Source: a bacterium (GTDB lineage Bacteria > SZUA-182 > DTGQ01). Taken from it: 11,526 nucleotides of DNA. The DNA lies in the NCBI GenBank assembly GCA_040752695.1, contig JBFMGO010000148.1, positions 1 to 11,526 on the forward strand, written 5' to 3'. The position numbers and the translations under genes are program-made. This document shows positions 1 through 11,526 of this stretch, one piece after another; position 1 is the stretch's first letter, and the number at the start of each line of letters is the position of its first letter. The notes beneath the pieces were generated by a model. That model made no database searches, had not been told where the DNA came from, and was given only the letters and a program-made list of their open reading frames with translations.

Positions 1-1254
1 TGTTTCCAGATCAATACCAGGATACCTGCGAAGGTGAAGACGCACCACCGAAAGAGCCCGCTCCCTGTATCATCAGAAAACTCCCCGGACTCATCGACAG
101 AGGAAATCCTTCAAGAGGCACGCGGCGCGCTTGCCCGCGGTGACTTCAAAGTGTGCATCGTTATCCCTGAAGGCACTTCCCACAACTTCGACATCCTGGC
201 CAGGCAGCTCATTACCGGCCTTGTTCCGGCGGCTGGCGGGTCGGGCTCAAGCGGGGCCTTTGCCGCCGGGGTACCACAGCCGCCGCAAGAGCCTATAGCC
301 GCGCTAAAGGAAAAGGCCCTGGCTAGAGTTCAGGTTATCCTTGATCCTGCTATCCCTGAAGTATTCAGGGAGACTATCATGAATGCCTTAAGCCGCAGCG
401 TAACCATGACCGAGATGGAAATCATACTCGACGGCCTTTCCCAAACCATCGAATCAGCCGTCGGTGCGGCAGCCCGGCCCTTTGGAGTCCCTCCTTCGCT
501 TTCCTCTTCCCCTTCATCCGGTGGATTTCATCTGGCTGATTTCATGAAACATGACCTGAACCATGCCTCCAAATATAATGGGATTCTGGTCGAAATCAAG
601 GAAGATTATGTATTTGACGCAGGCAAAAGCACGCCGCCTACTTCGACCCAGCAGAATGTACCTGCCTGGACCATGTTTGCCATGTTCTTCATCGTGGTCC
701 CCCTGTCCGGTTATCTTATCAATGACCGGCAGCAGGGTATACTGAAGAGGATGATGGTTGCGCCGGTCAGCTACTTTACGATTCTGCTGGCCAAGGTAAT
801 GGTATACCTGGTAATATGCCTGTTGCAGTTTTCGCTTATGCTCCTGGTGGGATTTAAGATTCTGCCCCTTTTTGGAGTCCCTAGACTGGAAATAGGCTCA
901 AATCACCTGGCCCTTTTGCTGGTTGCTGCTGCTGCCGCTCTGGCTGCCATAGGGTTCGGTCTTGCGGTTGGAACCATCATGCAAAGCCAGCAACAGGCTT
1001 CAACGTTTGGCGCCGTTACCATCATCATTGCGGCTGCCCTGGGAGGAGTTATGGTCCCTGTGTATGTGATGCCGGAGTTCATGCAAAAAGTGAGCATTCT
1101 TTCACCCCTGGCCTGGGGCCTCAACGCCTTTCTCGATGTCTTTCTTCGCCACGGCACTCTGACTTCCGTACTGCCCAACGTTGGGCGGCTGATGGGTTTT
1201 TTCGTTGTCACCATGTTATTATCATTTGGCTATTCTGTATGGCAGCGGGACTGA
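1..1254 (+). CDS. ABC-2 type transporter permease, 5'-partial
   Basis: The frame is open from base 1 (CFQINTRIPAKV..., no stop before the GTG at 34) to TGA 1252-1254. It contains a VxIPxG extracellular-domain motif (CIVIPEG), then PTSTQQNVPAWTMFAMFFIVVPLS, NDRQQGILKRMMVAP, several TM helices and AALGGVMVPVYVMPEFMQKVSILSPLAWG, all typical of ABC-2 permeases. Confidence 0.92.
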   Translation, partial: CFQINTRIPAKVKTHHRKSPLPVSSENSPDSSTEEILQEARGALARGDFKVCIVIPEGTSHNFDILARQLITGLVPAAGGSGSSGAFAAGVPQPPQEPIAALKEKALARVQVILDPAIPEVFRETIMNALSRSVTMTEMEIILDGLSQTIESAVGAAARPFGVPPSLSSSPSSGGFHLADFMKHDLNHASKYNGILVEIKEDYVFDAGKSTPPTSTQQNVPAWTMFAMFFIVVPLSGYLINDRQQGILKRMMVAPVSYFTILLAKVMVYLVICLLQFSLMLLVGFKILPLFGVPRLEIGSNHLALLLVAAAAALAAIGFGLAVGTIMQSQQQASTFGAVTIIIAAALGGVMVPVYVMPEFMQKVSILSPLAWGLNAFLDVFLRHGTLTSVLPNVGRLMGFFVVTMLLSFGYSVWQRD

Positions 1255-1301
1255 CCGCTGCCTTGGGAATTTCCCGTTTTACCGGGGCACAAAAGGGGAT
1301 G

Positions 1302-1345
1302 ATAAACTCACATGAAGGGGATAAATTCACATGAAGGGAATAAAC
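1302..1345 (+). repeat. 19-bp tandem duplication of the RBS/start region of the ACP gene
   Basis: ataaactcacatgaagggg (1302-1320) and ataaattcacatgaaggga (1321-1339) are 17/19 identical, followed by a partial third copy ataaac (1340-1345). Each full unit contains an ATG (1312, 1331). Confidence 0.85.
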
Positions 1346-1731: not shown

Positions 1732-2706
1732 TCAACCTTTCTGTTTTTGCCAGACATTGTGAAATAAAAAGCACTGGTATGGATATCGGTCTACATACGC
1801 ATCGAGAATGGCAGCATAGTCTTGCACCCATTTTTGCAATTGCCGGGTTTTGTTTTGGCCGCTCTCGTAGCGGGGATACAGCACGTTCGATACATCGATG
1901 ACATAGCTTTTGTCTTTCGTTTTCATCGATAGTAAAACGACAACGGGACATTCTACGGCAGCAGCGATACTGAAGGCACCATAGGGGAACCAGGCTCTTT
2001 CTTTCAGAAAGGAAACCTCGAGGGCCTTGAATCCATAGCTGCGGTCACCCATGATCGATACGATATGGCCTTCCTTCAATACATTGATAATCTTGAGAAT
2101 CCCTCCAAGCTCCTGCTCAGGAGAAATGAATTTAATGCGTTCTTGCTCCTCGCCTATGGGCAGAGAATTTTTGAGCGCCTGATTATCTTCAGGACGCATG
2201 AGCAGGTAGACGTCTCTTTCCATTTTTCCCAAAGAGGTCATAGCCAGTTGCCAGTTACCGGCGTGAGCTGTCAAAAGGATTATCCCCTGCCGGGGATTGG
2301 CCTCCTGCCCGCCGGAAGGGAGAGGGCCGGGGTGATGAGACTGAAGAAGAGAGAGGAAATGATCATATCCCTGCAATTTGATATCGAACGTTTTTTCTTT
2401 TGAAAGAATGGCGTTAAGATCGATCAGTTGCCTGCCCTGGTTTACGAATAGCCGGTAGATGTGCAAACGCTTCGTGAAAAAACCGCAGCCTGGAAACCTT
2501 CGTTCTACATAGGCTGAAGAAGCACTGACAGCAGATGTATCGAAAATCAGGTAATACAGGCAGACTACATATAATAAACCATAGGCTCCCCGCAACCCGA
2601 AAAGACGCATGAATGTCTTGAAGAACCAGAAACCGGCAGCGTTTCCCCTTTTCTTAGCCGTTATTTTCCGGTTATCCGGCACGCTGGACGGTTTTGTTTG
2701 CTCCAT
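1732..2706 (-). CDS. LpxL/lysophospholipid-type lipid acyltransferase (324 aa)
   Basis: GIILLTAHAGNWQ catalytic-His block, GHIVSIMGDR, FPYGAFSIAAAVECPVV and C-terminal YPYQCFLFHNVW match lipid-A-acyltransferase-like proteins of aryl polyene clusters. Start reassigned to ATG 2706 (MEQTK), which follows GAGGAGAGGA and lies 16 nt past the upstream stop. Confidence 0.88.
   Translation of the reverse strand: MEQTKPSSVPDNRKITAKKRGNAAGFWFFKTFMRLFGLRGAYGLLYVVCLYYLIFDTSAVSASSAYVERRFPGCGFFTKRLHIYRLFVNQGRQLIDLNAILSKEKTFDIKLQGYDHFLSLLQSHHPGPLPSGGQEANPRQGIILLTAHAGNWQLAMTSLGKMERDVYLLMRPEDNQALKNSLPIGEEQERIKFISPEQELGGILKIINVLKEGHIVSIMGDRSYGFKALEVSFLKERAWFPYGAFSIAAAVECPVVVLLSMKTKDKSYVIDVSNVLYPRYESGQNKTRQLQKWVQDYAAILDAYVDRYPYQCFLFHNVWQKQKG
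2282..2335. repeat. REP-like palindromic element remnant inside the acyltransferase
   Basis: Hairpin atcccc-tgcc-ggggat (2282-2297) plus gggagagggccggggtga (2318-2335). It is translated as HHPGPLPSGGQEANPRQG directly before the GIILLTAH block. Confidence 0.7.
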
Positions 2707-2722
2707 GATCGAGATCCTCTCC

Positions 2723-3913
2723 TCATACGGCTTCTTTTCTTCTTTGTAATGCAAAGGTAGCGACAAATACGACAAAACCCACGACAATCGCAGCAACAGG
2801 TGCGATAATGAGCGATCCCAAAAGCCATTCCCATAACCGTTCAGTAAATTGGTTGAAAATTACCCGTGCGGAAAACTCGGTCAGCCAGCGGCCATAGCGA
2901 AGGTAATAGCCCAGTTCGATGCAGGCTGCCGGGATAAAGGGAGGCATGGCCAGGTGCTGGATATTGATCGCCATTATCTTGTTCAAGTGCAGGCGGGTTG
3001 CTACATAGATAATCACCAGTGTGTGGATTGAAATAAGGGGCAATACAGCTAAAAACATGCCTACAGCCGCCGCCGCCGCCAATCCTCCGGGGGTTGCGTT
3101 TTCCTGGAGCAGCAGCCTGAGCATTTTTACCGGATGGAACAGGATGCTCATCTCGAACCGGCTTTCCGCAGAAGAAACGCGCCTGCGGTGAGGGATGGGC
3201 AGGAGTCTTCTTGTGACCAGCCGGGTGTGCATCCAGGAGATGCGGATATTGTCCTTAAGCGGCCTGAAGCTTGAAACACGTAATTGAGGCTCAGGATAAA
3301 AGACATCGATATCGACTGTCTTCAGCCGTAATCCCGCCCAGACCGCCCTGGCCAGGATCTCTGCTTCGAAGTCGTAACGAGAGCCCTTGAAGGCCATCTG
3401 CATAAGATATCGCACAGGGTAAGCCCGAAAGCCGCTTTGACAATCGTCAATAGAGACACCCGCCTCGATCCGCAGCCAGAAATTGGCGAATTTCCTTCCG
3501 AACCGGCTTTTGCCGGGAATCGTATCCCCGCCCGCAAGAGAGCGTGGAAGAAATTTCCTGCACCCTATCACCATAACCGCATCATCCTCCTGAAGGAGGG
3601 GGATGAACTTTTCCATATCGCGCGGATAGTGCTGACCGTCCGCATCGATCGTAATCATGAAACGCCCGCCGCAAGAGTCTACGTATTTTAACGCGGTAAG
3701 AATCGCTTCCCCCTTGCCCCGGTTTTTTTCGTGCCGGAGGACGGTAACATCGCACCCGCTCAAGAGGGCGGAAACATCGCAATCCGTGCTGCCGTCATCG
3801 ACGACCAAGACATGTGACAGAAATGAGCGGCATTCTGTGACTATACGTTCAATCGTATTTTTATTATTGAATACCGGAATAACACACCATATATGTTCCG
3901 TAAACGAAATCAT
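2723..3913 (-). CDS. Glycosyltransferase family 2 fused to a C-terminal DUF2062-like membrane domain (396 aa)
   Basis: VIPVFNN, VVDDGSTD, NRGKGEA, TIDADGQH (DxD), DCQSGFRAYP and YDFEAEIL are GT2 (DPM-like) motifs. The hydrophobic C-terminal region (TPGGLAAAAAVGMFLAVLP...RLHLNK...WLLGSLIIAP) resembles DUF2062. ATGA overlap with the upstream gene. Confidence 0.9.
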   Translation of the reverse strand: MISFTEHIWCVIPVFNNKNTIERIVTECRSFLSHVLVVDDGSTDCDVSALLSGCDVTVLRHEKNRGKGEAILTALKYVDSCGGRFMITIDADGQHYPRDMEKFIPLLQEDDAVMVIGCRKFLPRSLAGGDTIPGKSRFGRKFANFWLRIEAGVSIDDCQSGFRAYPVRYLMQMAFKGSRYDFEAEILARAVWAGLRLKTVDIDVFYPEPQLRVSSFRPLKDNIRISWMHTRLVTRRLLPIPHRRRVSSAESRFEMSILFHPVKMLRLLLQENATPGGLAAAAAVGMFLAVLPLISIHTLVIIYVATRLHLNKIMAINIQHLAMPPFIPAACIELGYYLRYGRWLTEFSARVIFNQFTERLWEWLLGSLIIAPVAAIVVGFVVFVATFALQRRKEAV

Positions 3914-5292
3914 TGCCTTTTCCGGGATCTGCGGTCCTTACTCGAAAGCAGCATGTCCCATAACGATCCGACGTACCCCATCTGATGGAGAAGCTGCACG
4001 TTACTGTCGAGGGAGTCGGGAGGGTAGATGCAATACCGGTCACCTGAAAAAGCGCTGGCCAGTGTCTCTTCCAGCCAGGTTTTCTCAACTGCCGGAGAAA
4101 TATAATAAACCGGATCGAGTAATTTTTGTTCCGGTTCGAGCATGCCTTCCCGGCAGGCTGTCTCAAACAGAGCCGTGTGCGGGAGAACGCGTATGCCCAT
4201 GAAAATAAAAGAAACTGTCCGCTTAAGGCCCCTGATATTTTCGATGCCTTCTGCAACTGTCTCTTTCGTTTCGCCGGGGCAGCCAAACATAAAGTAGTGC
4301 GCAGTGGCTACGTCATGCCTGGCAAACAGGTCATTACAGGCTGCGATATCCTTAAATAAAAAGGACTTGCCGAGTTTTCTCAAAGGAATATCCGAAGGTG
4401 CATCAGCCCCTATTTCCGCTGCCTTAAGGCCGGTCTTTTTCATCAGTGCCACCTCTTCGTCGTCCAATCCGGCTGGCGTAAAAAAGGCGGTCCAGGGAAC
4501 ACACAGCCTTCTTTTCTCCATCTCGCGGATTATGGGAAGGTGGTGCTTTTGGGTATCGTTAAAGACCGAATCGGTGAAGAAGATATAGTGCACTCCATAC
4601 TCATCCATCAGCATTTGGATATCGTCTACCACCGCCTGAGGATCGCGGCAGCGGATTATCGACCCCTCCAAGAAAGGGTATGAGCAGTAGGTACAGCGCT
4701 GTGAGCATCCACGTTTTGTCTGAACAGCAGCCATGCCGCCGTTTTGCAAATAGAATTTCATAAGATCGGGATCGTAACCGGCAGAGGAGATCTCAACTCC
4801 CATCAGGGAAGCGGCAGGCCGTATGAGCCTATCTTCGATCCGTCCGGATGCGGGATCAGAATAGTCTCCCTGCGCGAGCCTGTCCACAAAATCGACGAGC
4901 GCGGATTCACCCTCTCCGACAATTCCATAATCCGCACCGGACTCGGCTAAAATCTCTTCGGGCAGAATGGAAAAACCCGATCCGCCAAGCACGACCGGGA
5001 CACTTGTGTGCTGCCGGATGCTTTGTACGATATTCTTGACCACGCCAATATACTTTTGCTCATGAAGAAAATTGACATTATCGATATTGCGGATCGATAT
5101 GCCGATGAGAGCGGGACGAAAGGAATGAATGGTATCGGCCAGGGCATCCAGCGACTGGCCTTGTTGGAGGTAATCGAATTGGCATACCTCGTGCCCGGCT
5201 TTCCTGAGCGCTGCCGCGATCTGGCTCAATCCGAGAGGATAGACAGGATAGGGTGTCGTAGCGCTATTAGATGAAATAAGCAAGATCTTCAT
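3910..5292 (-). CDS. B12-binding radical SAM protein, lipid-biosynthesis ('ladderane-cluster') type (460 aa)
   Basis: N-terminal cobalamin-binding-type domain (KILLISSN...PYPVYPLG, IGISIRNIDN, VVLGGSGFS, GIVGEGE), then QTKRG-CSQRCTYC (CxxxCxxC), FFTDSVFN and YFMFGCPGET. Recalled as resembling TIGR04072; not verified by search. Confidence 0.9.
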   Translation of the reverse strand: MKILLISSNSATTPYPVYPLGLSQIAAALRKAGHEVCQFDYLQQGQSLDALADTIHSFRPALIGISIRNIDNVNFLHEQKYIGVVKNIVQSIRQHTSVPVVLGGSGFSILPEEILAESGADYGIVGEGESALVDFVDRLAQGDYSDPASGRIEDRLIRPAASLMGVEISSAGYDPDLMKFYLQNGGMAAVQTKRGCSQRCTYCSYPFLEGSIIRCRDPQAVVDDIQMLMDEYGVHYIFFTDSVFNDTQKHHLPIIREMEKRRLCVPWTAFFTPAGLDDEEVALMKKTGLKAAEIGADAPSDIPLRKLGKSFLFKDIAACNDLFARHDVATAHYFMFGCPGETKETVAEGIENIRGLKRTVSFIFMGIRVLPHTALFETACREGMLEPEQKLLDPVYYISPAVEKTWLEETLASAFSGDRYCIYPPDSLDSNVQLLHQMGYVGSLWDMLLSSKDRRSRKRQ

Positions 5293-6605
5293 GAGCCTTC
5301 TTCTCTCCCCGGCGGGCAGGATTCCTTCCCTCCTGAAAAGGGGAGATCCGATCGGTTCCCTCCCCAGGTACGGCCAGGGGCCAATTGAACTTTCCGGTAG
5401 GTTCCGTCTTCTTTTTCCTTCTCTATGACTTTGAGAAACAGTTTGGCCATCTTCAATTCCTGGCTGCAGGTATGATAAAAAGTTTCCCAGGCGTATTCAT
5501 ACATCCTCTGGAGTGAGTCAATGCTCATTTTGGCAGGCTTGAATACGACCTCCCCGGTAGTATACCGCTTCCAGTCATTGTGGAGGATACGGTTTTCCTT
5601 TTCCAATTGTTCTCTGATCGGGGTGTGGGGAAAAGGAGTGAGGATGGTAAATTCTGCCAGATCCAGGTTTATTTCGAGGAGAAAATCCACGAGCCGTTTG
5701 ATGTAATCCTCGTCATGGGAGTCAAGACCCAGAATGACCGTTCCCTCGACTCCGATCCCGCGCTCTTGCAGCCTTTTGACTTTTCTCCGGATGTGGTCCG
5801 AAGTATCCACGATGGCCTGGTACACGTACCAGCAGCCAGCCTGTGCGGCCAGATCCAGTATTTCGTCATCGTCCTTGATAGGGTGGCAGATCCATTTCTT
5901 TCGCAAGGGCTTGATCGCCTTAAACAGGGACTTTTCCCATTCGTCATCCTGGGACAGAGAATTATCGACAAAAAACAGATGATTATTATCGATACTCTCA
6001 AGTTCTTCGACGACTGCTTCTATAGGCCGAGGTCTGAAGTTCCGGCCCCCCAAAAACGGCGTACAGCAGGGAAAGCAGTTGAACCGGCATCCCCGTGAGG
6101 CATGCACCAGGTCTACCATCTGTACGCCCCGGAAATTATACAGCTCGCGCTTCAGGATGCTGCGGCGGGCGGTTTTGATCAGGGCCGTATCGGGAGGGTC
6201 CGAGCGAAAATCGTACATTTTTTTCAATTTTCCCTTTTGGAAATCGTCCATGATCCGGTCAAAATGGCCTTCCGCTTCACCCGAAAAGACAGCGTCGGCA
6301 TGGGAAACCGTCTCCCCGGCATGAAGCATGGCGGCAATGCCGCCAAAAATGACCGTCTTACCATGTGCGCGGTACCAGTCGGCTATCTCCCAGGCACGGG
6401 GTATCTGACAGGTCAGCATGACGGACAGGGCAACGAGGTCCGCATCGTCGCTCAAATCCAATGGCTCGACATGTTCATCGCAAAAGTCAATCTCGATATC
6501 TTCTCTCACTGCTGCCGCAAAGCACACCGGTCCGTGAGGCGGCAGGTTAAATTCTGTCTGGTGGCGCAATTTAGGCCATTGAGGATAAATCAGCTTTATT
6601 TTCAC
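5289..6605 (-). CDS. Second B12-binding radical SAM protein (438 aa, GTG start)
   Basis: B12-binding-like N-terminus (DEHVEPLD, DLVALS, VIFGG, ADAVFSGEAEG), ASRG-CRFNCFPC (CxxxCxxC), FFVDNSL, ILGLDSHD and ILTPFPHTP. Starts 6 nt after the CLF stop and overlaps the next gene by ATGA. Confidence 0.9.
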   Translation of the reverse strand: MKIKLIYPQWPKLRHQTEFNLPPHGPVCFAAAVREDIEIDFCDEHVEPLDLSDDADLVALSVMLTCQIPRAWEIADWYRAHGKTVIFGGIAAMLHAGETVSHADAVFSGEAEGHFDRIMDDFQKGKLKKMYDFRSDPPDTALIKTARRSILKRELYNFRGVQMVDLVHASRGCRFNCFPCCTPFLGGRNFRPRPIEAVVEELESIDNNHLFFVDNSLSQDDEWEKSLFKAIKPLRKKWICHPIKDDDEILDLAAQAGCWYVYQAIVDTSDHIRRKVKRLQERGIGVEGTVILGLDSHDEDYIKRLVDFLLEINLDLAEFTILTPFPHTPIREQLEKENRILHNDWKRYTTGEVVFKPAKMSIDSLQRMYEYAWETFYHTCSQELKMAKLFLKVIEKEKEDGTYRKVQLAPGRTWGGNRSDLPFSGGKESCPPGREEGS

Positions 6606-6611
6606 TATCCC

Positions 6612-7316
6612 TTACCTTGTCTCTTTCTTTTTTAAAGGAGCCTTTTGGATTTTTAGAGGAGCCTTTTGGGCTCCTTCTATTATTTGATCTATATTCGATG
6701 CCTGCCCGGCAATAGCCTCTATGGTATCAAACCCGAATCCCTTTCCCGGCGGTTCCGCTCCCCCTTCTTGTAAAAAAAAACAGAGGGCCTCTTCCTCATC
6801 CGCCTTTACTGCCAGTACCTTTTGGACCTTTTCACCAAGGAGCATTCCCTTTGCATACGACAAAAGGGAAGGGATTGCACGGTGTTGAAAACCCATGTAT
6901 ATGACCGGCCCCTGACAGCCAAAATGAATGGCTGCCTCGGCTAAAGGGCTTGAAGGGAGAGTATAGATAAAGAGGTTGCCCCGTGCCAGTGTCCTGCCGG
7001 ATTCAACGTAATCTTTGAAGTACGCGATGTTCGACGAAAGGGCTCCAGCCTCGTTGGTCCCCAAAAGGCCGATATCCTGTTTTTGCCCTTCGGCATAGAT
7101 TATTCCGGCATCATAGATGGCCAGGCCCAGAGCGCAGCATGTCATTTTGGATACACGGTCAAACCTTCCAAAATTTTTTACCGGATATGAAAATACCCCT
7201 TCTCCGGACAGTTGGGCATGGATCGATTTTCTCTGAGGGAAAGGCCGGCTCAGGGCTTTGACCACGCACCCGTATTTTTTTCCCGTTATCCACCCGATGC
7301 CATTAATATCAATCAT
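6612..7316 (-). CDS. Ketosynthase N-terminal-like / chain-length-factor-like protein (234 aa)
   Basis: FGRFDRVSKM, IGLLGTNEAG and LFIYTLPSSPLAEAAIHFGCQGP align with the KS N-terminal half. There is no Cys at the catalytic position after GP and no HGTGT/GH motifs. SD GGTGAGG upstream; directly follows a full KS. Confidence 0.8.
   Translation of the reverse strand: MIDINGIGWITGKKYGCVVKALSRPFPQRKSIHAQLSGEGVFSYPVKNFGRFDRVSKMTCCALGLAIYDAGIIYAEGQKQDIGLLGTNEAGALSSNIAYFKDYVESGRTLARGNLFIYTLPSSPLAEAAIHFGCQGPVIYMGFQHRAIPSLLSYAKGMLLGEKVQKVLAVKADEEEALCFFLQEGGAEPPGKGFGFDTIEAIAGQASNIDQIIEGAQKAPLKIQKAPLKKKETR
6629..6670. repeat. 21-bp in-frame tandem duplication in the CLF C-terminus
   Basis: tttttaaaggagccttttgga and tttttagaggagccttttggg (19/21 identical) encode QKAPLKI-QKAPLKK. 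Confidence 0.85.
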
Positions 7317-7359
7317 GACGCTTTCGCCTCACCATCTCTTCTTACCATTATCGTTCGTA

Positions 7360-7411
7360 TCATTATCCCTGGAATCATTCGTAATCCCTTCATTATCCCT
7401 GGAATCATTCG
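7360..7411. repeat. 22-bp exact direct repeat (30-bp period) in the KS-CLF spacer
   Basis: tcattatccctggaatcattcg at 7360-7381 and 7390-7411. In addition, ttcgtatcatt occurs at 7354-7364 and 7428-7438. Confidence 0.9.
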
Positions 7412-7433
7412 CCTTTCGCATTCACCCTTCGTA

Positions 7434-8654
7434 TCATTCCTCCGTGCGATACTCTTTCAGAACCAGGGCTGCATTTAATCCGCCGAATCCGGAGTTGGTG
7501 GAAACCGTTACCGTTCCATCGAGCGAATGAGGCTGTGAAAAAACCCACCCTTTGGCTTCTTCATCAACACAGCGCATATTTACGGTCGGCGGAATCATTT
7601 TTTCTTTTAAAGCCTGGAAGGCGACAATCACCTCCAAAAGCCCGGCTGCTCCCATGGTGTGCCCTGTCCCCCCCTTGATGGAGTAGGTTGGAATGGCCCG
7701 GTTTTGGAAAGCCTTTTTAAAGGCTTTCATCTCCATGGCGTCGTTGTATACGGTGCCTGTTCCGTGAGCGGATATGGACCCTACGGCACTTTCGGGAATG
7801 CTGGCTGACTGGAGGGCTTTTTCAACAGCCAGAGCAAGGCCGCAGCCATCCCGGCAGGGCCCTGTCATGTGGTTGGCATCACCGGTCATTCCCCATCCGG
7901 CAATTTCTCCGATAATGGGTCTTTCTTCCCGCATCGCTCTTTCTTCGCTCATGAGCAGGATAAAGCCGGCAGCCTCACCAAGACTCAGTCCTTTTCTGTC
8001 CCGATCGAAAGGACGGGCCATGTCTTTATCCAGGGCCATTAACGTAGAAAAGCCGGCCATAACGAACTCGCTTACGCTGTCGCAGGCCACAACGAGAAGG
8101 CAATCCTGCTCGCCATTGCGTATCAGGGAGGCTGCCTGGGCAATGGCTGCACTCGATGAAACACAGGCTGCGGAAACGATGAGCGGCATGTTCCGGCTTT
8201 TACTCCTGGTTACCACCCCTGACCAATGCACTACTTTGGCGAGCAGACAGTCCAGACGGCTTTCTTTCGCCGTTCCCTGAGTCCCTCTCAGAACGGATTG
8301 CTCGAGAAAATCGATTTCCCCGGTGGTAGTCGCCAGTATCAAAAGGCTGTCATCGGGGATAAGACCAAGATCCGAGGCCTTCGAAAGAAGCGGAATAAGC
8401 ATGTTCATGACGAATGATTCCCCCGGGCCTGCCTTCAGATCCGGTATGGTGGCCGCTTTGTCGGTTAAAAAGTGTCTGGTTGAAAAGCGATCCAGGGGCC
8501 TGATAGCGCTTTGCCCCGAAAGAAGGCCCTGCCAGCAGGCATGAACGCCCCACCCATAGGGAGTTACCAGATCACAGGCTACGGCCACGGCTTTTCGATA
8601 TCTCCCTTTCCCCTGCGGGGAGAGCGAGGGGGTGAGAGGGGCTAGGTGAGGCAT
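7434..8654 (-). CDS. Beta-ketoacyl-ACP synthase (FabF/FabB-type KS)
   Basis: Catalytic triad intact: SAACVSS (Cys), SAHGTGTVYND (His), KGGTGHTMGAAG (His). Also RPFDRDRKGLSLGEAAG and NSGFGGLNAAL. Start placed at ATG 8654 (AGGAG upstream) rather than 8687. Confidence 0.95.
   Translation of the reverse strand: MPHLAPLTPSLSPQGKGRYRKAVAVACDLVTPYGWGVHACWQGLLSGQSAIRPLDRFSTRHFLTDKAATIPDLKAGPGESFVMNMLIPLLSKASDLGLIPDDSLLILATTTGEIDFLEQSVLRGTQGTAKESRLDCLLAKVVHWSGVVTRSKSRNMPLIVSAACVSSSAAIAQAASLIRNGEQDCLLVVACDSVSEFVMAGFSTLMALDKDMARPFDRDRKGLSLGEAAGFILLMSEERAMREERPIIGEIAGWGMTGDANHMTGPCRDGCGLALAVEKALQSASIPESAVGSISAHGTGTVYNDAMEMKAFKKAFQNRAIPTYSIKGGTGHTMGAAGLLEVIVAFQALKEKMIPPTVNMRCVDEEAKGWVFSQPHSLDGTVTVSTNSGFGGLNAALVLKEYRTEE
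8602..8641. repeat. REP-like GC-rich palindromic element inside the KS 5' end
   Basis: Hairpin ctttcccc-tgc-ggggagag (8606-8624) followed by a gggggtgagagggg tail. It is translated as PLTPSLSPQGKG ahead of the KS core. Related sequence occurs at 2318-2335 (15/18) and 1659-1672 (14/14). Confidence 0.75.
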
Positions 8655-9112
8655 GAAAATTCTCCTGCCTGCCACCGGCTGCGGCATCGCTCAAGGATTT
8701 CAGGAGAGATGAGGCATGCCTCTTTCGTGATTCCATCGACAAACATCTGTATGGTATATCCTGTGGAGGCGAACTTTCCATCCTCTTTGATCAGTGAATA
8801 TTCAGTATGCAGCCTGGCCCCTTCGCTCCATATAAAGGAGGCAGTAATGGTAAATTCCTCATCGAGATACAAAGGGCGGTGATAATCGATATGTAACTGC
8901 ACGATGGGCGCGTGGATATTGGCGTCATGAAAATCCCGGTAGGAAAGGCCGCAGTGCCTGCCGAGTTCAGCCCACCCTTCTTCGAAGTAGGCCGGATACC
9001 TGCCGTGCCAGGCAATTCCCATAACATCAACTTCGCTGAACTTTACCCGCCGTTTGATTTGAATCAAAAGGGGAGGCGGTGCCCCTTCGACAGGCTGAAA
9101 ATATCCTTTCAT
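8642..9112 (-). CDS. Acyl-CoA/acyl-ACP thioesterase, hotdog 4HBT/YbgC family (156 aa)
   Basis: RVKFSEVDVMGIAWHGRYPAYFEEG and APIVQLHIDYHRPL motifs. ATG 9112 overlaps the upstream stop (ATGA 9109-9112); the GTG at 9124 is an alternative start. Confidence 0.9.
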   Translation of the reverse strand: MKGYFQPVEGAPPPLLIQIKRRVKFSEVDVMGIAWHGRYPAYFEEGWAELGRHCGLSYRDFHDANIHAPIVQLHIDYHRPLYLDEEFTITASFIWSEGARLHTEYSLIKEDGKFASTGYTIQMFVDGITKEACLISPEILERCRSRWQAGEFSCLT

Positions 9113-9594
9113 TTTACGGCGCACGATGTTTCATCCTCATGGGAAAAATGTACCTTTATATGGAGCTCGGCAATTTTTCTCTCTTCACTCGTTATGAAAA
9201 CCTTTATCAGGGAGTCTTCTGCCGGGAGCCCGTGCTGTTCTGTAACGGGCACCTGCCGGTCTGCCGGGGGCGTCTTGCCTTCTGGCGGCAGGGGTTCTTC
9301 GCCTTTTTTCTTCCCCTCCCGCCAGGAAAAAATTACCTCCTGCCCACAGGAAACCGGAGAGAAGAATTTTGCCATAACGATTTCCTTTAAGGTGACCTTT
9401 TTTTTCTTCCACGCTTTAAGAATCAGCAAAATTGCCTGAATCTTACATACGCCCGGCAGGATGGGCCGATCGGGAAAGTGCCCTTTAAAGCCGATGAACT
9501 CCGGAGGAAAAAGAAAACCCGCTTTCCCTCCCTCTTCGGAGATTTCCCATAAGCCGAGCATGCTTTGTTCGATTTCCTTCTCGAGTTTACTCAC
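9109..9594 (-). CDS. FabZ/FabA-like 3-hydroxyacyl-ACP dehydratase (ApeI-like) with an internal insertion
   Basis: FIGFKGHFPDRPILPGVCKIQ active-site motif and AKFFSPV. The GTG start overlaps the upstream stop (GTGA 9591-9594). Confidence 0.85.
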   Translation of the reverse strand: MSKLEKEIEQSMLGLWEISEEGGKAGFLFPPEFIGFKGHFPDRPILPGVCKIQAILLILKAWKKKKVTLKEIVMAKFFSPVSCGQEVIFSWREGKKKGEEPLPPEGKTPPADRQVPVTEQHGLPAEDSLIKVFITSEERKIAELHIKVHFSHEDETSCAVK

Positions 9595-10277
9595 GAGCGG
9601 ATTTCCTTTAAGCGGACAATGAATTGGTAATGGCGCTGATGATGGTTGAAAATAATACCGCCTGGATATAATTTACCATCTTTTTGCTGGTATTCATAAT
9701 AAGAAATACTCCAGAGGCGGCGATTCTGCTTGCAGCAGCGCTTTTCGACCAGAAGGCTGTCAGCTCCGGCAAATATATACTCGATGGTGCCTTCTTCATC
9801 CGGCTGACTGAAAATGATCCGGTATTTTTCTTTTTTTACCCTGGCTTCGGGAACTGGAACGCGGTCGAAATAGATCCGCCTGATATCATCGGCTACTGCC
9901 TGGGCGAAATTACCATGACGGGTAAATTCTTCAAGAGCGAACCTGCATTCGACGCTCTTTTTGTCTGCGGCCAGTTCGAATAATTTTACCCCCATAGGGT
10001 TCATGCCTGCAACCGTGAAAGCTTTCTGCCGGCTGTCAAGGGCAGTATACCCGATTGCCGAAAAGGTATGGCGGCCATAGGTGAAGACAATCGTATCGAC
10101 AACCTGAAAGGTATCGGGAATAAGCCGGGCGAACCTCTCCCGGACCGTACCGGGGTCCACCCCCTCAAACGGCACATACGATACCGTTTGAAAGGGAATC
10201 CTGCCAGGACCGCAGCCGTTTTGCAACAGCAGTAAAAGGCACAGGAATGTGGCTGCACTCGGGAGAATTTTTATCAT
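9591..10277 (-). CDS. Probable lipoprotein, DUF3261-like (228 aa)
   Basis: ATG 10277 overlaps the MMPL stop (ATGA) with AAAGGA upstream. MIKILPSAATFLCLLLLLQNG-C looks like a signal peptide II with an imperfect lipobox. VAGMNPMGVKLFEL and DDIRRIYF resemble the lipoproteins that follow the exporter in aryl polyene clusters. Confidence 0.65.
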   Translation of the reverse strand: MIKILPSAATFLCLLLLLQNGCGPGRIPFQTVSYVPFEGVDPGTVRERFARLIPDTFQVVDTIVFTYGRHTFSAIGYTALDSRQKAFTVAGMNPMGVKLFELAADKKSVECRFALEEFTRHGNFAQAVADDIRRIYFDRVPVPEARVKKEKYRIIFSQPDEEGTIEYIFAGADSLLVEKRCCKQNRRLWSISYYEYQQKDGKLYPGGIIFNHHQRHYQFIVRLKEIRS

Positions 10278-11526
10278 ACTGTTCCTTTTATCCACCGGGG
10301 ATAGAGGGCAGGGACGATGGTCAGCGACGAGATGTATCCTGAGAACACCCCTGCCACCATGGTCACTCCGATTGAAAACAGGACCGGATGCCGGGCGAAT
10401 AACAGCACCCCGGCACCAATGAGCGTTGTAAGAGCGGACAGCGTTATCGCCGTGGCCGTACCCGTTTTTAATGCGCGCCTGCACGCATAAGCCATGAATA
10501 TGCCATAGTCACTGGTCAGGCCGACGACGATCATGGCAGCCATGACATTTACCGGATTGAGACTGAGCCCAAGGACCGGCATTATTCCCAATGCCACCGC
10601 AAGACCCGTGACAACGGGGACAAAGGAAAGTATGGTCAACCGTATGCTCCTCAAAAGGAAGAAAGTCAGACCCGTAATCAGTAAGGCTGCAATTGCCGAC
10701 AAATACACAATTTCTGAAAAGACCGATTGAGAGAGCACATGAGAGAGGTTTTTGCGCGATACGATAAAGGTTCCCGGATACCGGTCGCACAAGGTCTTGA
10801 GCGCTGCAATATCGTTGTCATTATCGGGGAAAAAGGTCAATACCCGGTGCCCGTTCTCTCCTTTCATGATAAAACGCTCTTTCACCCTTCTCAAGGAGGG
10901 GGAGAAAATCCCGGCCCCCTTTGATTCATCCCGAACGGCCACTCCTTCATACAGGCTCTCGAAGAAGGGCGAAAAGGCATCTTCCGAGAAATGATATTTC
11001 CGGCCATGCTCAAGGAGAAGATTTCTCAATTTTTCTTCATTGCCCTGTTTCCAGAAATGAACCCATCTTTTAGCGTTTTCTTCCCTTGTTTTTTTTGACG
11101 GCAAAAGCTGCGCTATGCTGCACAGTTTATCCTCACCGATGCGGGCTTTCGCATCGCGGTAAAGATGCTCGTTGCGCTCAAGAGCTTCCTCCAGATTGTT
11201 CCCTGTGGCTACCAGCACAGCCGGATTTTCCTCTCCTCCCCATATCTTTTGAAATCTCCTCTCGGCCTGCAAAACACCCGGATCACTTCCATCGAATTGC
11301 CTGATGTCGGTGCTGAAACTCAGGCGGGAACACAGAACGAGAGCACAGAGGATGGTTATTCCCCAAAGGATAATTTTCCCTCTGTCTGATAGGTATGTAT
11401 GAGGGCCGGATGAGCCAAACGGCATGCAGTCGCCCTTACCCTGGAGGCAGGCGTCCTTGCCCTGGACATGGCTGTTATCGTTCCTTGAGGATACTAAAAG
11501 ATGCGGTAAAACGAAAAAAGATGCAA
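10274..11526 (-). CDS. MMPL/RND family lipid exporter, 5'-partial
   Basis: The frame stays open from the window end (ASFFVLPHLLVSS...) through the ATG at 11425 to TGA 10274-10276. It has a TM helix, a periplasmic domain (FSTDIRQFD), then a multi-helix TM bundle with the MMPL signature IVVGLTSDYGIF and ALTTLIGAGVLLFARHPVLFSIG. Confidence 0.9.
   Translation of the reverse strand, partial: ASFFVLPHLLVSSRNDNSHVQGKDACLQGKGDCMPFGSSGPHTYLSDRGKIILWGITILCALVLCSRLSFSTDIRQFDGSDPGVLQAERRFQKIWGGEENPAVLVATGNNLEEALERNEHLYRDAKARIGEDKLCSIAQLLPSKKTREENAKRWVHFWKQGNEEKLRNLLLEHGRKYHFSEDAFSPFFESLYEGVAVRDESKGAGIFSPSLRRVKERFIMKGENGHRVLTFFPDNDNDIAALKTLCDRYPGTFIVSRKNLSHVLSQSVFSEIVYLSAIAALLITGLTFFLLRSIRLTILSFVPVVTGLAVALGIMPVLGLSLNPVNVMAAMIVVGLTSDYGIFMAYACRRALKTGTATAITLSALTTLIGAGVLLFARHPVLFSIGVTMVAGVFSGYISSLTIVPALYPRWIKGTV
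11424..11465. repeat. 21-bp degenerate in-frame tandem duplication in the MMPL linker
   Basis: On the minus strand ccagggcaaggacgcctgcct and ccagggtaagggcgactgcat (17/21) encode QGKDACL-QGKGDCM. Confidence 0.75.

What the first reader, a model, noticed from the sequence alone, without database searches (positions are those of the whole stretch)
1732..11526. Aryl-polyene-type lipid assembly line carrying two tandem cobalamin radical SAM enzymes: candidate pathway for an uncharacterised radical-modified membrane lipid
Seen: nine complete genes plus a partial MMPL on one strand, most junctions overlapping (ATGA/GTGA at 10274, 9591, 9109, 5289, 3910), with two B12-binding radical SAM genes placed between the KS/CLF pair and the GT/acyltransferase. 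Established: MMPL exporter, lipoprotein, dehydratase, thioesterase, KS/CLF, GT2 and LpxL-like acyltransferase are the chassis of aryl polyene lipid clusters, whose characterised enterobacterial examples lack such a radical SAM pair. FASII plus B12-radical-SAM clusters were proposed as ladderane candidates in anammox bacteria and also occur in non-anammox anaerobes, where to my knowledge the product is unresolved. Inference: an ACP-bound polyunsaturated chain is methylated, cyclised or cross-linked by radical chemistry, transferred to a glycosylated lipid anchor and exported.
Basis: partly seen in the sequence, partly recalled or inferred. Interest (0 to 1): 0.85.

Follow-up and report, generated by a model that had tools for sequence, protein, structure and literature searches.

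The report
Flexirubin-like lipid cluster, four radical enzymes
This is the middle part of a widespread, long-catalogued gene cluster of likely oxygen-avoiding bacteria that probably builds a pigment-like outer-membrane lipid, using radical enzymes whose chemistry and final product nobody has yet shown.

Summary
In detail: nine genes, a partial MMPL and all five 4-nt overlaps. The window is a whole contig. By gene order in a same-genus genome it is the middle of a ~30-kb aryl-polyene plus dialkylresorcinol (flexirubin/arcuflavin-type) cluster whose ends lie on contigs C67 and C43. The cluster has four radical SAM genes, not two. Gene 3910-5292 is TIGR04072 (610 bits, cut-off 360), the Kuste3342 type. 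It keeps TsrM's Arg69, lacks Glu273 and is most likely a ring methylase. Gene 5289-6605 has no curated family and unknown chemistry. The pair is syntenic across phyla but separable, and occurs without darB. On C43 a third B12-type enzyme sits where the aromatase DarA normally sits: 33 of 33 darB genomes carried one or the other, never both, but this is one event on the DarB tree. Ladderanes are unsupported: no anammox marker, and papers favour another Kuenenia cluster. The cluster type has been known since 2009, product unknown. This scan noted both the pair and the DarA swap on other genomes; I found neither characterised in the held papers. Verdict: uncharacterised variant of a known kind, interest 0.5.

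The parts
10274..11524 (-). C-terminal half of the MMPL/RND exporter (ApeM-like); the N-terminal half is at the end of contig C67
   Evidence: G002 MMPL residues 29-391 match C67 to base 3, and 398-792 match from window 11521
9591..10277 (-). DUF3261 lipoprotein (ApeN/LolB-like)
   Evidence: PF11659 34.2 bits (cut-off 22.3); ApeN = DUF3261 in PMC8253772 Table 1
9109..9594 (-). ApeI/FabZ-like hotdog dehydratase; its likely ApeP-type partner is the C-terminal domain of the rSAM/SPASM protein on C67
   Evidence: PF22818 22.2, below 28.5; ApeP-like domain, below cut-off; the two hotdog halves are fused in one ORF in G094 (L142:3903-4799)
8642..9112 (-). 4HBT-type acyl thioesterase (ApeK-like)
   Evidence: PF13279 61.5 bits
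7434..8654 (-). Ketosynthase with intact Cys164-His297-His332
   Evidence: the three residues are invariant in 18 of 18 aligned homologues
6612..7316 (-). Short chain-length-factor-like protein: N-terminal half of the KS fold, no catalytic Cys
   Evidence: no HMM hit; profile A5 vs PDB FabF E 1.7e-14
5289..6605 (-). rSAM2: B12-type radical SAM enzyme of no curated family, CxxxCxxC 173/177/180; chemistry unknown
   Evidence: motif invariant in 39 of 39; 56 of 401 genomes of G041's phylum at E<=1e-100
3910..5292 (-). rSAM1: TIGR04072 B12-binding radical SAM enzyme (Kuste3342 type); Arg68 aligns to TsrM Arg69, Val243 to TsrM Glu273; likely C-methylase
2723..3913 (-). GT2 glycosyltransferase fused to DUF2062 (GT part of ApeJ-like function)
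   Evidence: PF00535 77.2 and PF09835 45.8 bits
1732..2706 (-). LpxL-like acyltransferase (likely start ATG 2706 behind a GAGGAG site)
   Evidence: PF03279 49.5 bits; fused to GT2 in L017
1331..1666 (+). Acyl carrier protein PRK09184, last gene of the converging dar operon (darC position)
   Evidence: NF006617 76 bits (cut-off 70); same position in G002 and G004; Azoarcus darC
1..1254 (+). ABC-2 permease of the dar operon (5' end cut; darI position in Azoarcus naming); upstream genes rSAM3-darB-darG-darH are on contig C43

Best explanation
[quoted passage not shown] Shown by sequence: gene identities, conserved order, active-site residues, and the continuation on C67 (FabG, CrtI-like oxidoreductase, FabF, ACP, PlsC-like acyltransferase, FlxY-like CoA ligase, rSAM/SPASM-hotdog fusion, LolA, MMPL N-half) and on C43 (rSAM3, darB, darG, darH; divergent ACP-KS-CLF). 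Inferred by analogy to APE, flexirubin and arcuflavin: (1) the FlxY-like ligase loads an aryl acid starter of unknown identity; (2) KS/CLF pairs, FabG and the ApeI/ApeP-type dehydratase extend it without enoyl reduction to a polyene; (3) rSAM1 methylates an sp2 ring carbon through methylcobalamin, probably by a radical route because the SAM-blocking Glu of TsrM is absent (about 50%); (4) rSAM2, usually next to the short CLF and kept where rSAM1 is lost, modifies the ACP-bound chain (methylation about 45%, ring formation or other C-C chemistry about 40%); (5) DarB condenses two acyl-ACPs to a carboxy-cyclohexanedione, and rSAM3 replaces DarA, either aromatising the ring (about 50%) or methylating it or its acyl precursor (about 40%); (6) thioesterase, PlsC-like, GT2 and LpxL-like enzymes attach the chain to an anchor, and MMPL, LolA and DUF3261 export it.
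For: Chassis: every ApeC-R function of the E. coli table except ApeG has a counterpart. Flexirubin-specific models score highest for C67 genes or their G002 orthologues: FlxY 457.8/520, FlxB 295/340, LolA2 94/125, all below cut-off. The dar arm is over cut-off: StlD/DarB 551/450, DarG_fam 133/70, DarH 447/300 (DarH scored on the G002 copy), in the Azoarcus order with rSAM3 in the darA place. One-contig clusters with both arms occur in G002, G323, G239, G440 and G094. 25 of 29 darB genomes carry rSAM2, against 56 of 401 overall (kin are not independent). rSAM1: its best curated relatives after TIGR04072 are BzaD (214 bits) and TsrM (151 bits); the only strong PDB sequence match is TsrM, E 7e-36; the model (pLDDT 91) matches TsrM at Z 36.4, rmsd 3.1 over 453 residues, next entry OxsB at Z 27.7; Arg68 is invariant in 41 of 41. 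Known APE and flexirubin head groups are ring-methylated, and no class I methyltransferase was found among the cluster ORFs of G000/G002. DarA or rSAM3: exactly one in 33 of 33 darB genomes. The host looks anaerobic and cobamide-competent: no COX1 match, CobS present (96.6% complete).
Against: No product, expression or enzyme data exist. No aryl-starter gene was found: no PF00221 ammonia lyase in the genome and no chorismatase among the cluster ORFs, so an aryl head is assumed. The TsrM Glu273 equivalent is never Glu (V/L in 32 of 32; V/I/L in 29 of 30 with one not parsed), so rSAM1 is not a TsrM-type non-radical enzyme, and 25% identity to TsrM does not fix a substrate. Kuenenia's shared cluster and G375 carry class I methyltransferases together with the TIGR04072 enzyme, so it is no strict stand-in for ApeB. 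The DarA/rSAM3 exclusivity is a single change on the DarB tree, and the two profiles were built from those loci, so only the absences are a test. A 48%-identical rSAM3 paralogue lies in a locus with a KS gene but no darB (G000:C98), which argues for an acyl substrate. The three contigs are joined by synteny only, with no exact overlap. A CrtI-like oxidoreductase and a SPASM enzyme have no assigned role.
Confidence: 0.5

Rival explanations
1. One reading: both window enzymes remodel a non-aromatic, ACP-bound unsaturated chain (methyl branches, small rings or cross-links), giving a radical-modified acyl glycolipid rather than an aryl-polyene pigment.
For: No aryl-starter enzyme found. rSAM2 follows the short CLF in most loci (CLF within 2.2 kb upstream of rSAM1 in 20 of 24 loci) and stays in G181 where rSAM1 is absent (L151). 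The SPASM enzyme is fused to a dehydratase half. rSAM1 lacks Glu273, so radical chemistry is open.
Against: A FlxY/PaaK-type ligase is in the cluster. The export and anchor genes are those of aryl polyene clusters. rSAM1's nearest characterised relatives are methylases. The 2026 review names only ladderanes and Jaw5 as acyl lipids proposed to be rSAM-modified.
Confidence: 0.25
2. The pair in the window works on the resorcinol/cyclohexanedione ring and stands in for DarA.
For: The host has darB and no darA; darB genomes are rich in rSAM2 (25 of 29).
Against: rSAM2 is present in both DarA-type (12 of 15) and rSAM3-type (13 of 14) darB genomes. darB was not found in 151 genomes of G042's phylum, nor in 350 of 351 of G043's phylum, although loci from these groups carry the pair. 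G017 and G018 carry the pair without darB.
Confidence: 0.06
3. The cluster makes ladderanes or their precursors.
For: TIGR04072 is named rSAM_ladder_B12, and Kuste3342 was a ladderane candidate. By eye, the N-termini of Kuste2803 and Kuste3608 resemble rSAM2's broad subgroup (not aligned).
Against: The host shows no anammox marker. D. psychrophila has the Kuste3342/3343 homologues and no ladderanes. Cluster I is the consensus locus. kuste3342 is weakly expressed, FPKM 6.5 against 64.7 for kuste3608. 78 of 401 genomes of G041's phylum pass the TIGR04072 cut-off.
Confidence: 0.03
4. The three contigs do not form one cluster in this organism (binning or orientation artefact), so the window's operon works without the dar arm.
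For: No exact overlap at either contig end, and the ABC ATPase gene is missing from the assembly.
Against: MMPL is split with only about 6 residues missing; darH and the permease are cut at the facing ends. Most genes are 54-86% identical to, and collinear with, one contig of the same-genus G002. GC is 0.49-0.51 in all three pieces.
Confidence: 0.07
5. The cluster is an anaerobic route to polyunsaturated fatty acids or C31 hydrocarbons, as proposed in 2009.
For: D. psychrophila makes C31:8 and C31:9 hydrocarbons and has the shared cluster.
Against: Heterologous expression gave no new fatty acids, though Kuste3342/3343 were not detected as proteins. Dedicated anchor and export genes point to an exported lipid. 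Recalled, not checked: C31:9 is made by the Ole/Pfa route.
Confidence: 0.04

Closest known systems
NCBIfam TIGR04072 (rSAM_ladder_B12) and the Kuenenia kuste3335-3352 / Desulfotalea shared lipid cluster (Rattray 2009, PMC2649909; Javidpour 2016, PMC4790861)
   Same: rSAM1 is a TIGR04072 member (609.7/360). The Kuste3342 N-terminus reads like rSAM1 and Kuste3343 like the SPASM enzyme on C67 (by eye). Also shared: PaaK-like ligase, CrtI-like oxidoreductase, GT, FabF/CLF, FabG, FabZ, ACPs. Product unknown in both.
   Different: Kuenenia's list has only those two radical SAM genes (no tandem B12 pair), two SAM methylases and no dar genes. The Kuenenia-like order ligase-SPASM-rSAM1-FabG-ACP is a separate subtype (G375, L144) that scores 415-436 bits and has no rSAM2 match.
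Flexirubin (Chitinophaga pinensis flxA-Y plus darAB, PMC3992019) and arcuflavin (Azoarcus BH72 arc plus dar, PMC3949708)
   Same: Polyene-type FAS II arm, FlxY-like ligase, FlxB-like reductase, LolA, exporter, GT, acyltransferases; dar operon order darB-darG-BtrH-ABC ATPase-permease-ACP.
   Different: No darA (a B12-type rSAM in its place), no FlxA ammonia lyase, no class I methyltransferase found, four radical SAM genes; the host is an uncultured, probably anaerobic member of a 20-genome phylum.
E. coli CFT073 aryl polyene cluster apeA-R (PMC8253772)
   Same: KS/CLF, two ACPs, ApeI/ApeP-like dehydratases, ApeK thioesterase, ApeL/M/N export trio, ApeD and ApeJ-like anchor enzymes.
   Different: apeA-R lists no radical SAM gene and methylates with the class I enzyme ApeB; no dar arm; ApeA, ApeB and ApeG counterparts were not found here.
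TsrM (PDB 6WTE/6WTF) and BzaD (TIGR04385)
   Same: Closest structure and closest curated families to rSAM1; lower-axial Arg conserved.
   Different: 25% identity; Glu273 replaced by Val; both family scores far below cut-off (151/500, 214/450); substrate unknown.
Anammox Cluster I (kuste3603-3608), consensus ladderane candidate
   Same: KS/CLF heterodimer logic, CrtI-like enzyme, a B12-type radical SAM enzyme.
   Different: A six-gene anammox-specific cluster without anchor or export genes; the host has no anammox marker.

Membership tests
TIGR04072 (rSAM1) | HMM score over the curated cut-off | tested here: met
   609.7 vs 360 bits, full length
TIGR04072 (rSAM1) | Lipid-biosynthesis gene neighbourhood | tested here: met
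Cobalamin-dependent radical SAM enzymes (rSAM1) | B12-binding domain plus CxxxCxxC | tested here: met
   PF02310 72/32.1; C196, C200, C203 invariant in 41 of 41
Cobalamin-dependent radical SAM enzymes (rSAM2) | CxxxCxxC motif | tested here: met
   C173, C177, C180 invariant in 39 of 39
Cobalamin-dependent radical SAM enzymes (rSAM2) | B12-binding domain | tested here: inconclusive
   PF02310 27.6 bits, under the 32.1 cut-off; profile aligns with rSAM1 over 363 columns
Cobalamin-dependent radical SAM enzymes (all) | Actual cobalamin binding and turnover | not testable with these tools
   needs purified protein; AprD4, a structural neighbour, shows that the fold alone does not prove methylase chemistry
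TsrM-type non-radical methylase | Arg at the lower axial face of cobalamin (Arg69) | tested here: met
   Arg68, gap-free local alignment to 6WTE (numbering counted by hand); invariant; role from PMC8992657
TsrM-type non-radical methylase | Glu ligand on the unique iron (Glu273) | tested here: not met
   Val243; V/I/L in all parsed homologues
Aryl polyene cluster | Active KS plus Cys-less CLF, ACPs, ketoreductase | tested here: met
   FabG on C67
Aryl polyene cluster | ApeI/ApeP dehydratase pair | tested here: inconclusive
   both Pfam hits are below cut-off; fusion of the two halves in G094 supports the pairing
Aryl polyene cluster | LolA + RND/MMPL + DUF3261 export trio and GT/acyltransferase anchor genes | tested here: met
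Aryl polyene cluster | Aryl-acid activating ligase | tested here: inconclusive
   FlxY model 457.8 bits, cut-off 520; substrate untested
Aryl polyene cluster | Class I SAM methyltransferase (ApeB) | tested here: not met
   none among the cluster ORFs of G000/G002 (opposite-strand shadow ORFs not scanned)
Aryl polyene cluster | Aryl-polyene product; antiSMASH arylpolyene/ladderane rule | not testable with these tools
   no antiSMASH and no lipid data
Flexirubin/dar pathway | DarB/StlD ketosynthase | tested here: met
   NF005293 551/450; the narrower NF053539 scores 471/550
Flexirubin/dar pathway | DarA aromatase | tested here: not met
   no match of profile A2 in G000 (hmmsearch --max best E 8e-4, partial); A2's first row is named 'dialkylrecorsinol condensing enzyme' by the Atlas; genome 96.6% complete
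Flexirubin/dar pathway | darG, BtrH-like darH, ABC transporter, ACP | tested here: met
   (the ATPase gene falls in an assembly gap; present in G002)
Flexirubin/dar pathway | FlxA tyrosine ammonia lyase | tested here: not met
   PF00221: 0 matches in G000
Anammox ladderane Cluster I | Anammox host | tested here: not met
Anammox ladderane Cluster I | Orthologues of kuste3603-3608 | not tested
   no Kuenenia sequence was available as a query

The most novel reading that the evidence does not exclude
Anaerobes make an undescribed flexirubin-like outer-membrane lipid by a radical-SAM route. A B12-type enzyme replaces the aromatase DarA and aromatises the DarB ring by radical oxidative decarboxylation, while rSAM2 and the dehydratase-fused SPASM enzyme build or cyclise the head group or chain on the carrier protein. 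That would be new C-C radical chemistry on acyl-ACP and a tractable model for the unsolved anammox enzymes.
Probability: 0.22. Interest if true: 0.85.

Novelty: new variant of a known kind. Interest (0 to 1): 0.5.

Why it matters
The cluster is common in anaerobes (rSAM2 in 56 of 401 sampled genomes of one phylum; also Omnitrophota, Lentisphaerae, Kiritimatiellae). It has been tied to ladderanes since 2009 and has no known product; similar clusters are reported as 'ladderane' clusters in non-anammox genomes. Reading it as an aryl-polyene/resorcinol lipid gives concrete masses and chromophores to look for. The DarA/rSAM3 swap gives a two-enzyme test with a known substrate (the DarB carboxy-cyclohexanedione), and cultured sulfur-cycle bacteria carry rSAM3. 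A 2026 review lists almost no radical SAM enzymes acting on acyl lipids, so any activity found would be new enzymology.

Tried and rejected
rSAM2-rSAM1 fusion suggested by an 877-aa open frame in G144: the two genes are in different frames, rejected. Obligate pair: 13 of 56 rSAM2 genomes had no TIGR04072 match listed and 40 of 83 TIGR04072 genomes no rSAM2 match (only 4 candidates scored per genome, many incomplete MAGs), so no complex job was sent. Direct contig overlap: none. Sequencing runs: none was listed, so no read evidence on expression or on the contig joins. Metagenome scan with rSAM3: one weak partial hit only. DarA in NCBIfam: 0 of 14 proteins hit; Pfam and PDB gave only weak flavodoxin hits, so the identity rests on the Atlas name and the position. 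Plasmid darB loci L068 and L069 had no annotated darA. Weak DarA-profile hits (61-81 bits, partial) in 4 rSAM3 genomes: I looked at one (G397) and it lies among unrelated genes about 6.5 kb away; the other three were not inspected. The rSAM3 model (pLDDT 85.5) only confirms the class B fold, with no clear best match. The rSAM1 tree was the quick version and adds nothing on function. Promoter/terminator scan of 1200-2000: nothing above chance. The BspA effector model hit on DUF2062 (19.8 bits, cut-off 300) is ignored as noise. A cluster-member look-up for names could not be made. Paper searches with no hit: aryl polyene + radical SAM + flexirubin, darB + radical SAM + cyclohexanedione. Dialkylresorcinol + radical SAM listed two cyanobacterial papers on other enzymes (listing only). 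TIGR04072 occurred in none of the 16 papers listed.

Full report
OBSERVATION. The window is the whole of contig C148 of a 6.05-Mb, 96.6% complete genome. Family scans confirm the names. The KS keeps Cys-His-His (18 of 18 homologues). The 234-aa gene after it has no library hit, but its profile matches the N-terminal half of FabF without the catalytic Cys, so it is a short CLF-like protein. The two radical SAM proteins are distant from each other (BLAST finds only an 80-residue stretch at 29%). rSAM1 (3910-5292) is TIGR04072, 609.7 bits against a cut-off of 360. rSAM2 (5289-6605) passes no NCBIfam cut-off, and its B12-binding score is under the Pfam cut-off.

HOST. The genome belongs to a phylum with 20 genomes in the collection. 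Ribosomal protein L2 finds unnamed 'bacterium' records at 84-94% and deltaproteobacteria-like records at about 72-76%, with no Planctomycete among the named hits of the best 120. No COX1 and no HZS_alpha match, one CobS match: probably an anaerobe that can finish cobamides, and not anammox.

THE CLUSTER IS THREE TIMES LARGER. Homologous loci showed further genes, which tblastn placed on C67 and C43. The same-genus genome G002 holds nearly everything on one contig: FabG, CrtI-like oxidoreductase, FabF, ACP, PlsC-like acyltransferase, FlxY-like CoA ligase, rSAM/SPASM fused to an ApeP-like hotdog domain, LolA, MMPL, then the window's genes, then a converging operon rSAM3-darB-darG-darH-ABC ATPase-permease-ACP. 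In G000 the MMPL is cut between C67 and C148 with about 6 residues missing; darH is cut at the end of C43 and the permease at the start of the window; the ATPase gene is absent from the assembly; no exact overlap joins the contigs. C43 also has a divergent ACP-KS-CLF set, which other genomes place right after LpxL. DarB scores 551/450, DarG_fam 133/70 and DarH (G002 copy) 447/300. The order is that of the Azoarcus dar cluster, with rSAM3 where darA stands. The window's plus-strand permease and ACP are therefore part of the system.

SYNTENY OF THE PAIR. Of 35 GTDB loci found with rSAM1 (Omnitrophota, Verrucomicrobiota, Lentisphaerae and others), rSAM2 is directly upstream in 30 of 32 with enough flank (one miss has it at 360 bp, the other has only 310 bp of flank), GT2 downstream in 28 of 34, the CLF upstream in 20 of 24 and the KS in 18 of 21. 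In 401 genomes of the phylum of G041 (reached through a locus titled Thermodesulfobacteriota), 78 pass the TIGR04072 cut-off; of the 24 scoring 540 bits or more, 22 have rSAM2 directly upstream, one does not and one is at a contig start. rSAM2 is in 56 of 401. The enzymes are separable: 13 of those 56 had no TIGR04072 match listed, G181 has KS-CLF-rSAM2 without rSAM1, several genomes keep them 6 kb apart, and a Kuenenia-like subtype has ligase-SPASM-rSAM1-FabG-ACP with no rSAM2 (G375). Only four candidates per genome were scored and many genomes are incomplete. In the host's own phylum 7 of 20 genomes pass TIGR04072 and 3 of 20 have darB.

WHAT rSAM1 LOOKS LIKE. After TIGR04072 the best curated models are BzaD (214 bits) and TsrM (151 bits), both under cut-off. 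TsrM is the only strong PDB sequence match and the best structural match of a pLDDT-91 model, Z 36.4 against 27.7 for the next entry. In the alignment Arg68 falls on TsrM Arg69 and Val243 on Glu273 (my count). PMC8992657 says Arg69 blocks the lower face of cobalamin and Glu273 blocks SAM from the cluster. Arg68 is invariant in 41 of 41 homologues; position 243 is never Glu. Inference: a TsrM-like cobalamin site with an ordinary radical site, best suited to C-methylation of an sp2 carbon. Ring methyls are the usual tailoring of APE and flexirubin head groups, and I found no class I methyltransferase in this cluster. Against this: Kuenenia and G375 have both kinds of enzyme. That BzaD methylates a ring carbon is recalled; the paper read only calls it a methyltransferase of the benzimidazole pathway. 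rSAM2 has no informative relative; its high conservation (58-83% outside one 49% homologue) and its position next to the CLF suggest a core step on the carrier-bound chain, which is inference only.

THE DarA SWAP. In the same 401 genomes 29 have darB. The gene directly upstream is a ~305-aa flavodoxin-like protein in 14, an rSAM3 orthologue (52-57% identical) in 14, and cut off in one. The Atlas names the first kind 'dialkylrecorsinol condensing enzyme' (score 0.98), the annotation of Azoarcus darA. Over 33 darB genomes (these 29 plus G000, G002, G004, G043), full-length DarA is in 14 and in pieces in G134; none of these 15 has rSAM3 (best 263 bits). rSAM3 (627 bits or more) is in the other 18, none of which has full-length DarA; four have partial 61-81-bit hits. 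The profiles were built from these loci, so only the absences test the idea. On a DarB tree the label changes once, with rSAM3-type DarB nested among DarA-type (quick tree, weak root): one replacement, long retained. A 48%-identical paralogue lies in a darB-free locus of the host beside a KS gene, so rSAM3 may act on an acyl chain or methylate the ring instead of aromatising it. The window's pair is not the DarA substitute: rSAM2 is in 12 of 15 DarA-type and 13 of 14 rSAM3-type genomes, and darB was not found in 151 genomes of G042's phylum or in 350 of 351 of G043's.

MECHANISM. See Best explanation. Shown: genes, order, residues, distribution. Inferred: aryl starter, polyene, ring methylation by rSAM1, chain chemistry by rSAM2, ring chemistry by rSAM3, anchor and export. 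The weakest link is the aryl starter, since no ammonia lyase was found.

COMPARISON WITH THE LITERATURE. Rattray 2009 described the Kuenenia/Desulfotalea cluster and found no ladderanes in D. psychrophila (abstract, first parts of Results and Discussion, passages; figures not held, so the Desulfotalea gene order was not seen). Javidpour 2016 lists the genes; Kuste3342/3343 were not detected on expression and no new lipid appeared (passages, sections 6 and 7, supplement rows). By eye, the supplement's Kuste3342 begins like rSAM1 and Kuste3343 like the SPASM enzyme, so Kuenenia's list lacks the tandem B12 pair. Recent work favours Cluster I for ladderanes, without direct proof (passages of PMC10139942, bioRxiv 10.64898/2026.05.19.726425 and PMC13459092; preprint supplements not seen). 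Flexirubin, arcuflavin, DarA/DarB and E. coli APE: first fifth of PMC3992019 and passages of PMC3949708, PMC6836626, PMC13748660 and PMC8253772. Also passages of PMC13331322, PMC8123684 and bioRxiv 10.1101/2022.12.20.521206. Searches that found no description of radical SAM enzymes in APE or dar clusters; the library lacks most subscription papers.

EARLIER NOTES OF THIS SCAN. Eight notes on other genomes describe the same pair, one the SPASM-hotdog fusion of this genome, and three the DarA swap (a related one). I stated my reading before and found the swap. The notes agree but are not evidence.

VERDICT. Real, conserved and chemically unexplained, but a known cluster type. It works like a flexirubin/arcuflavin pathway and is not a member of it (no DarA, no FlxA); rSAM1 is a member of TIGR04072 and not of the TsrM family. 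Novelty: new variant of a known kind. Interest 0.5; 0.85 if new radical chemistry is shown.

Noticed in passing
G000:C43:2530-3831 (L049): Third B12-type radical SAM gene directly before darB, in the darA position; mutually exclusive with darA in 33 of 33 darB genomes examined.
   Followed up: yes
G000:C67:2031-3521 (L048): rSAM/SPASM enzyme fused to an ApeP-like hotdog domain; separate genes in G323, and the hotdog is fused to the ApeI-like half in G094.
   Followed up: partly
window 7360-7411: Perfect 22-nt direct repeat (spacing 30) in the KS-CLF gap; the same gap holds an AAA ATPase plus a 170-aa gene in G002 and a lipoprotein-like gene in G004, so it may be an insertion hot spot.
   Followed up: no
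window 1301-1338 and 6629-6669: Short tandem duplications (19 nt before the ACP start; 20 nt at the CLF 3' end). Several window proteins carry short insertions or tails missing from homologues, e.g. the dehydratase is 161 aa against about 125.
   Followed up: no
G000:C98:4176-5633: rSAM3 paralogue (48%) between two similar ~250-aa genes (unscanned; they look like enoyl-CoA hydratases) and a KS gene, with no darB.
   Followed up: partly
G000:C19:15500-62100 and C22:18900-57100: Two other contigs rich in B12-type radical SAM genes and KS genes, including TIGR04072-like paralogues at 218-308 bits.
   Followed up: no
L002, L004, L006, L007, L009, L010, L013 (downstream of LpxL): Omnitrophota/Hydrogenedentota versions add ACP-KS-CLF, a second ACP, a 435-aa protein of no family, an FAD oxidoreductase, another B12-rSAM and an AMP ligase instead of the dar arm.
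   Followed up: partly
L140:10402-16102 (G440): An epimerase/reductase, PLP aminotransferase, GNAT and hydrolase block is inserted between the rSAM genes and GT2, suggesting an amino-lipid anchor in that genome.
   Followed up: no
L148:7737-9824, L149:1-1626 (G140); L146 (G205): Rearranged subtype with rSAM1 and rSAM2 about 6 kb apart and a fused KS-CLF; G140 also has two further short radical SAM genes and a Dak2/DegV (fatty acid kinase) fusion.
   Followed up: no
L017:1744-3789: GT2 and LpxL fused in one 681-aa ORF; in this genome rSAM3 has moved away from darB but stays divergent to ACP-KS (L155).
   Followed up: partly
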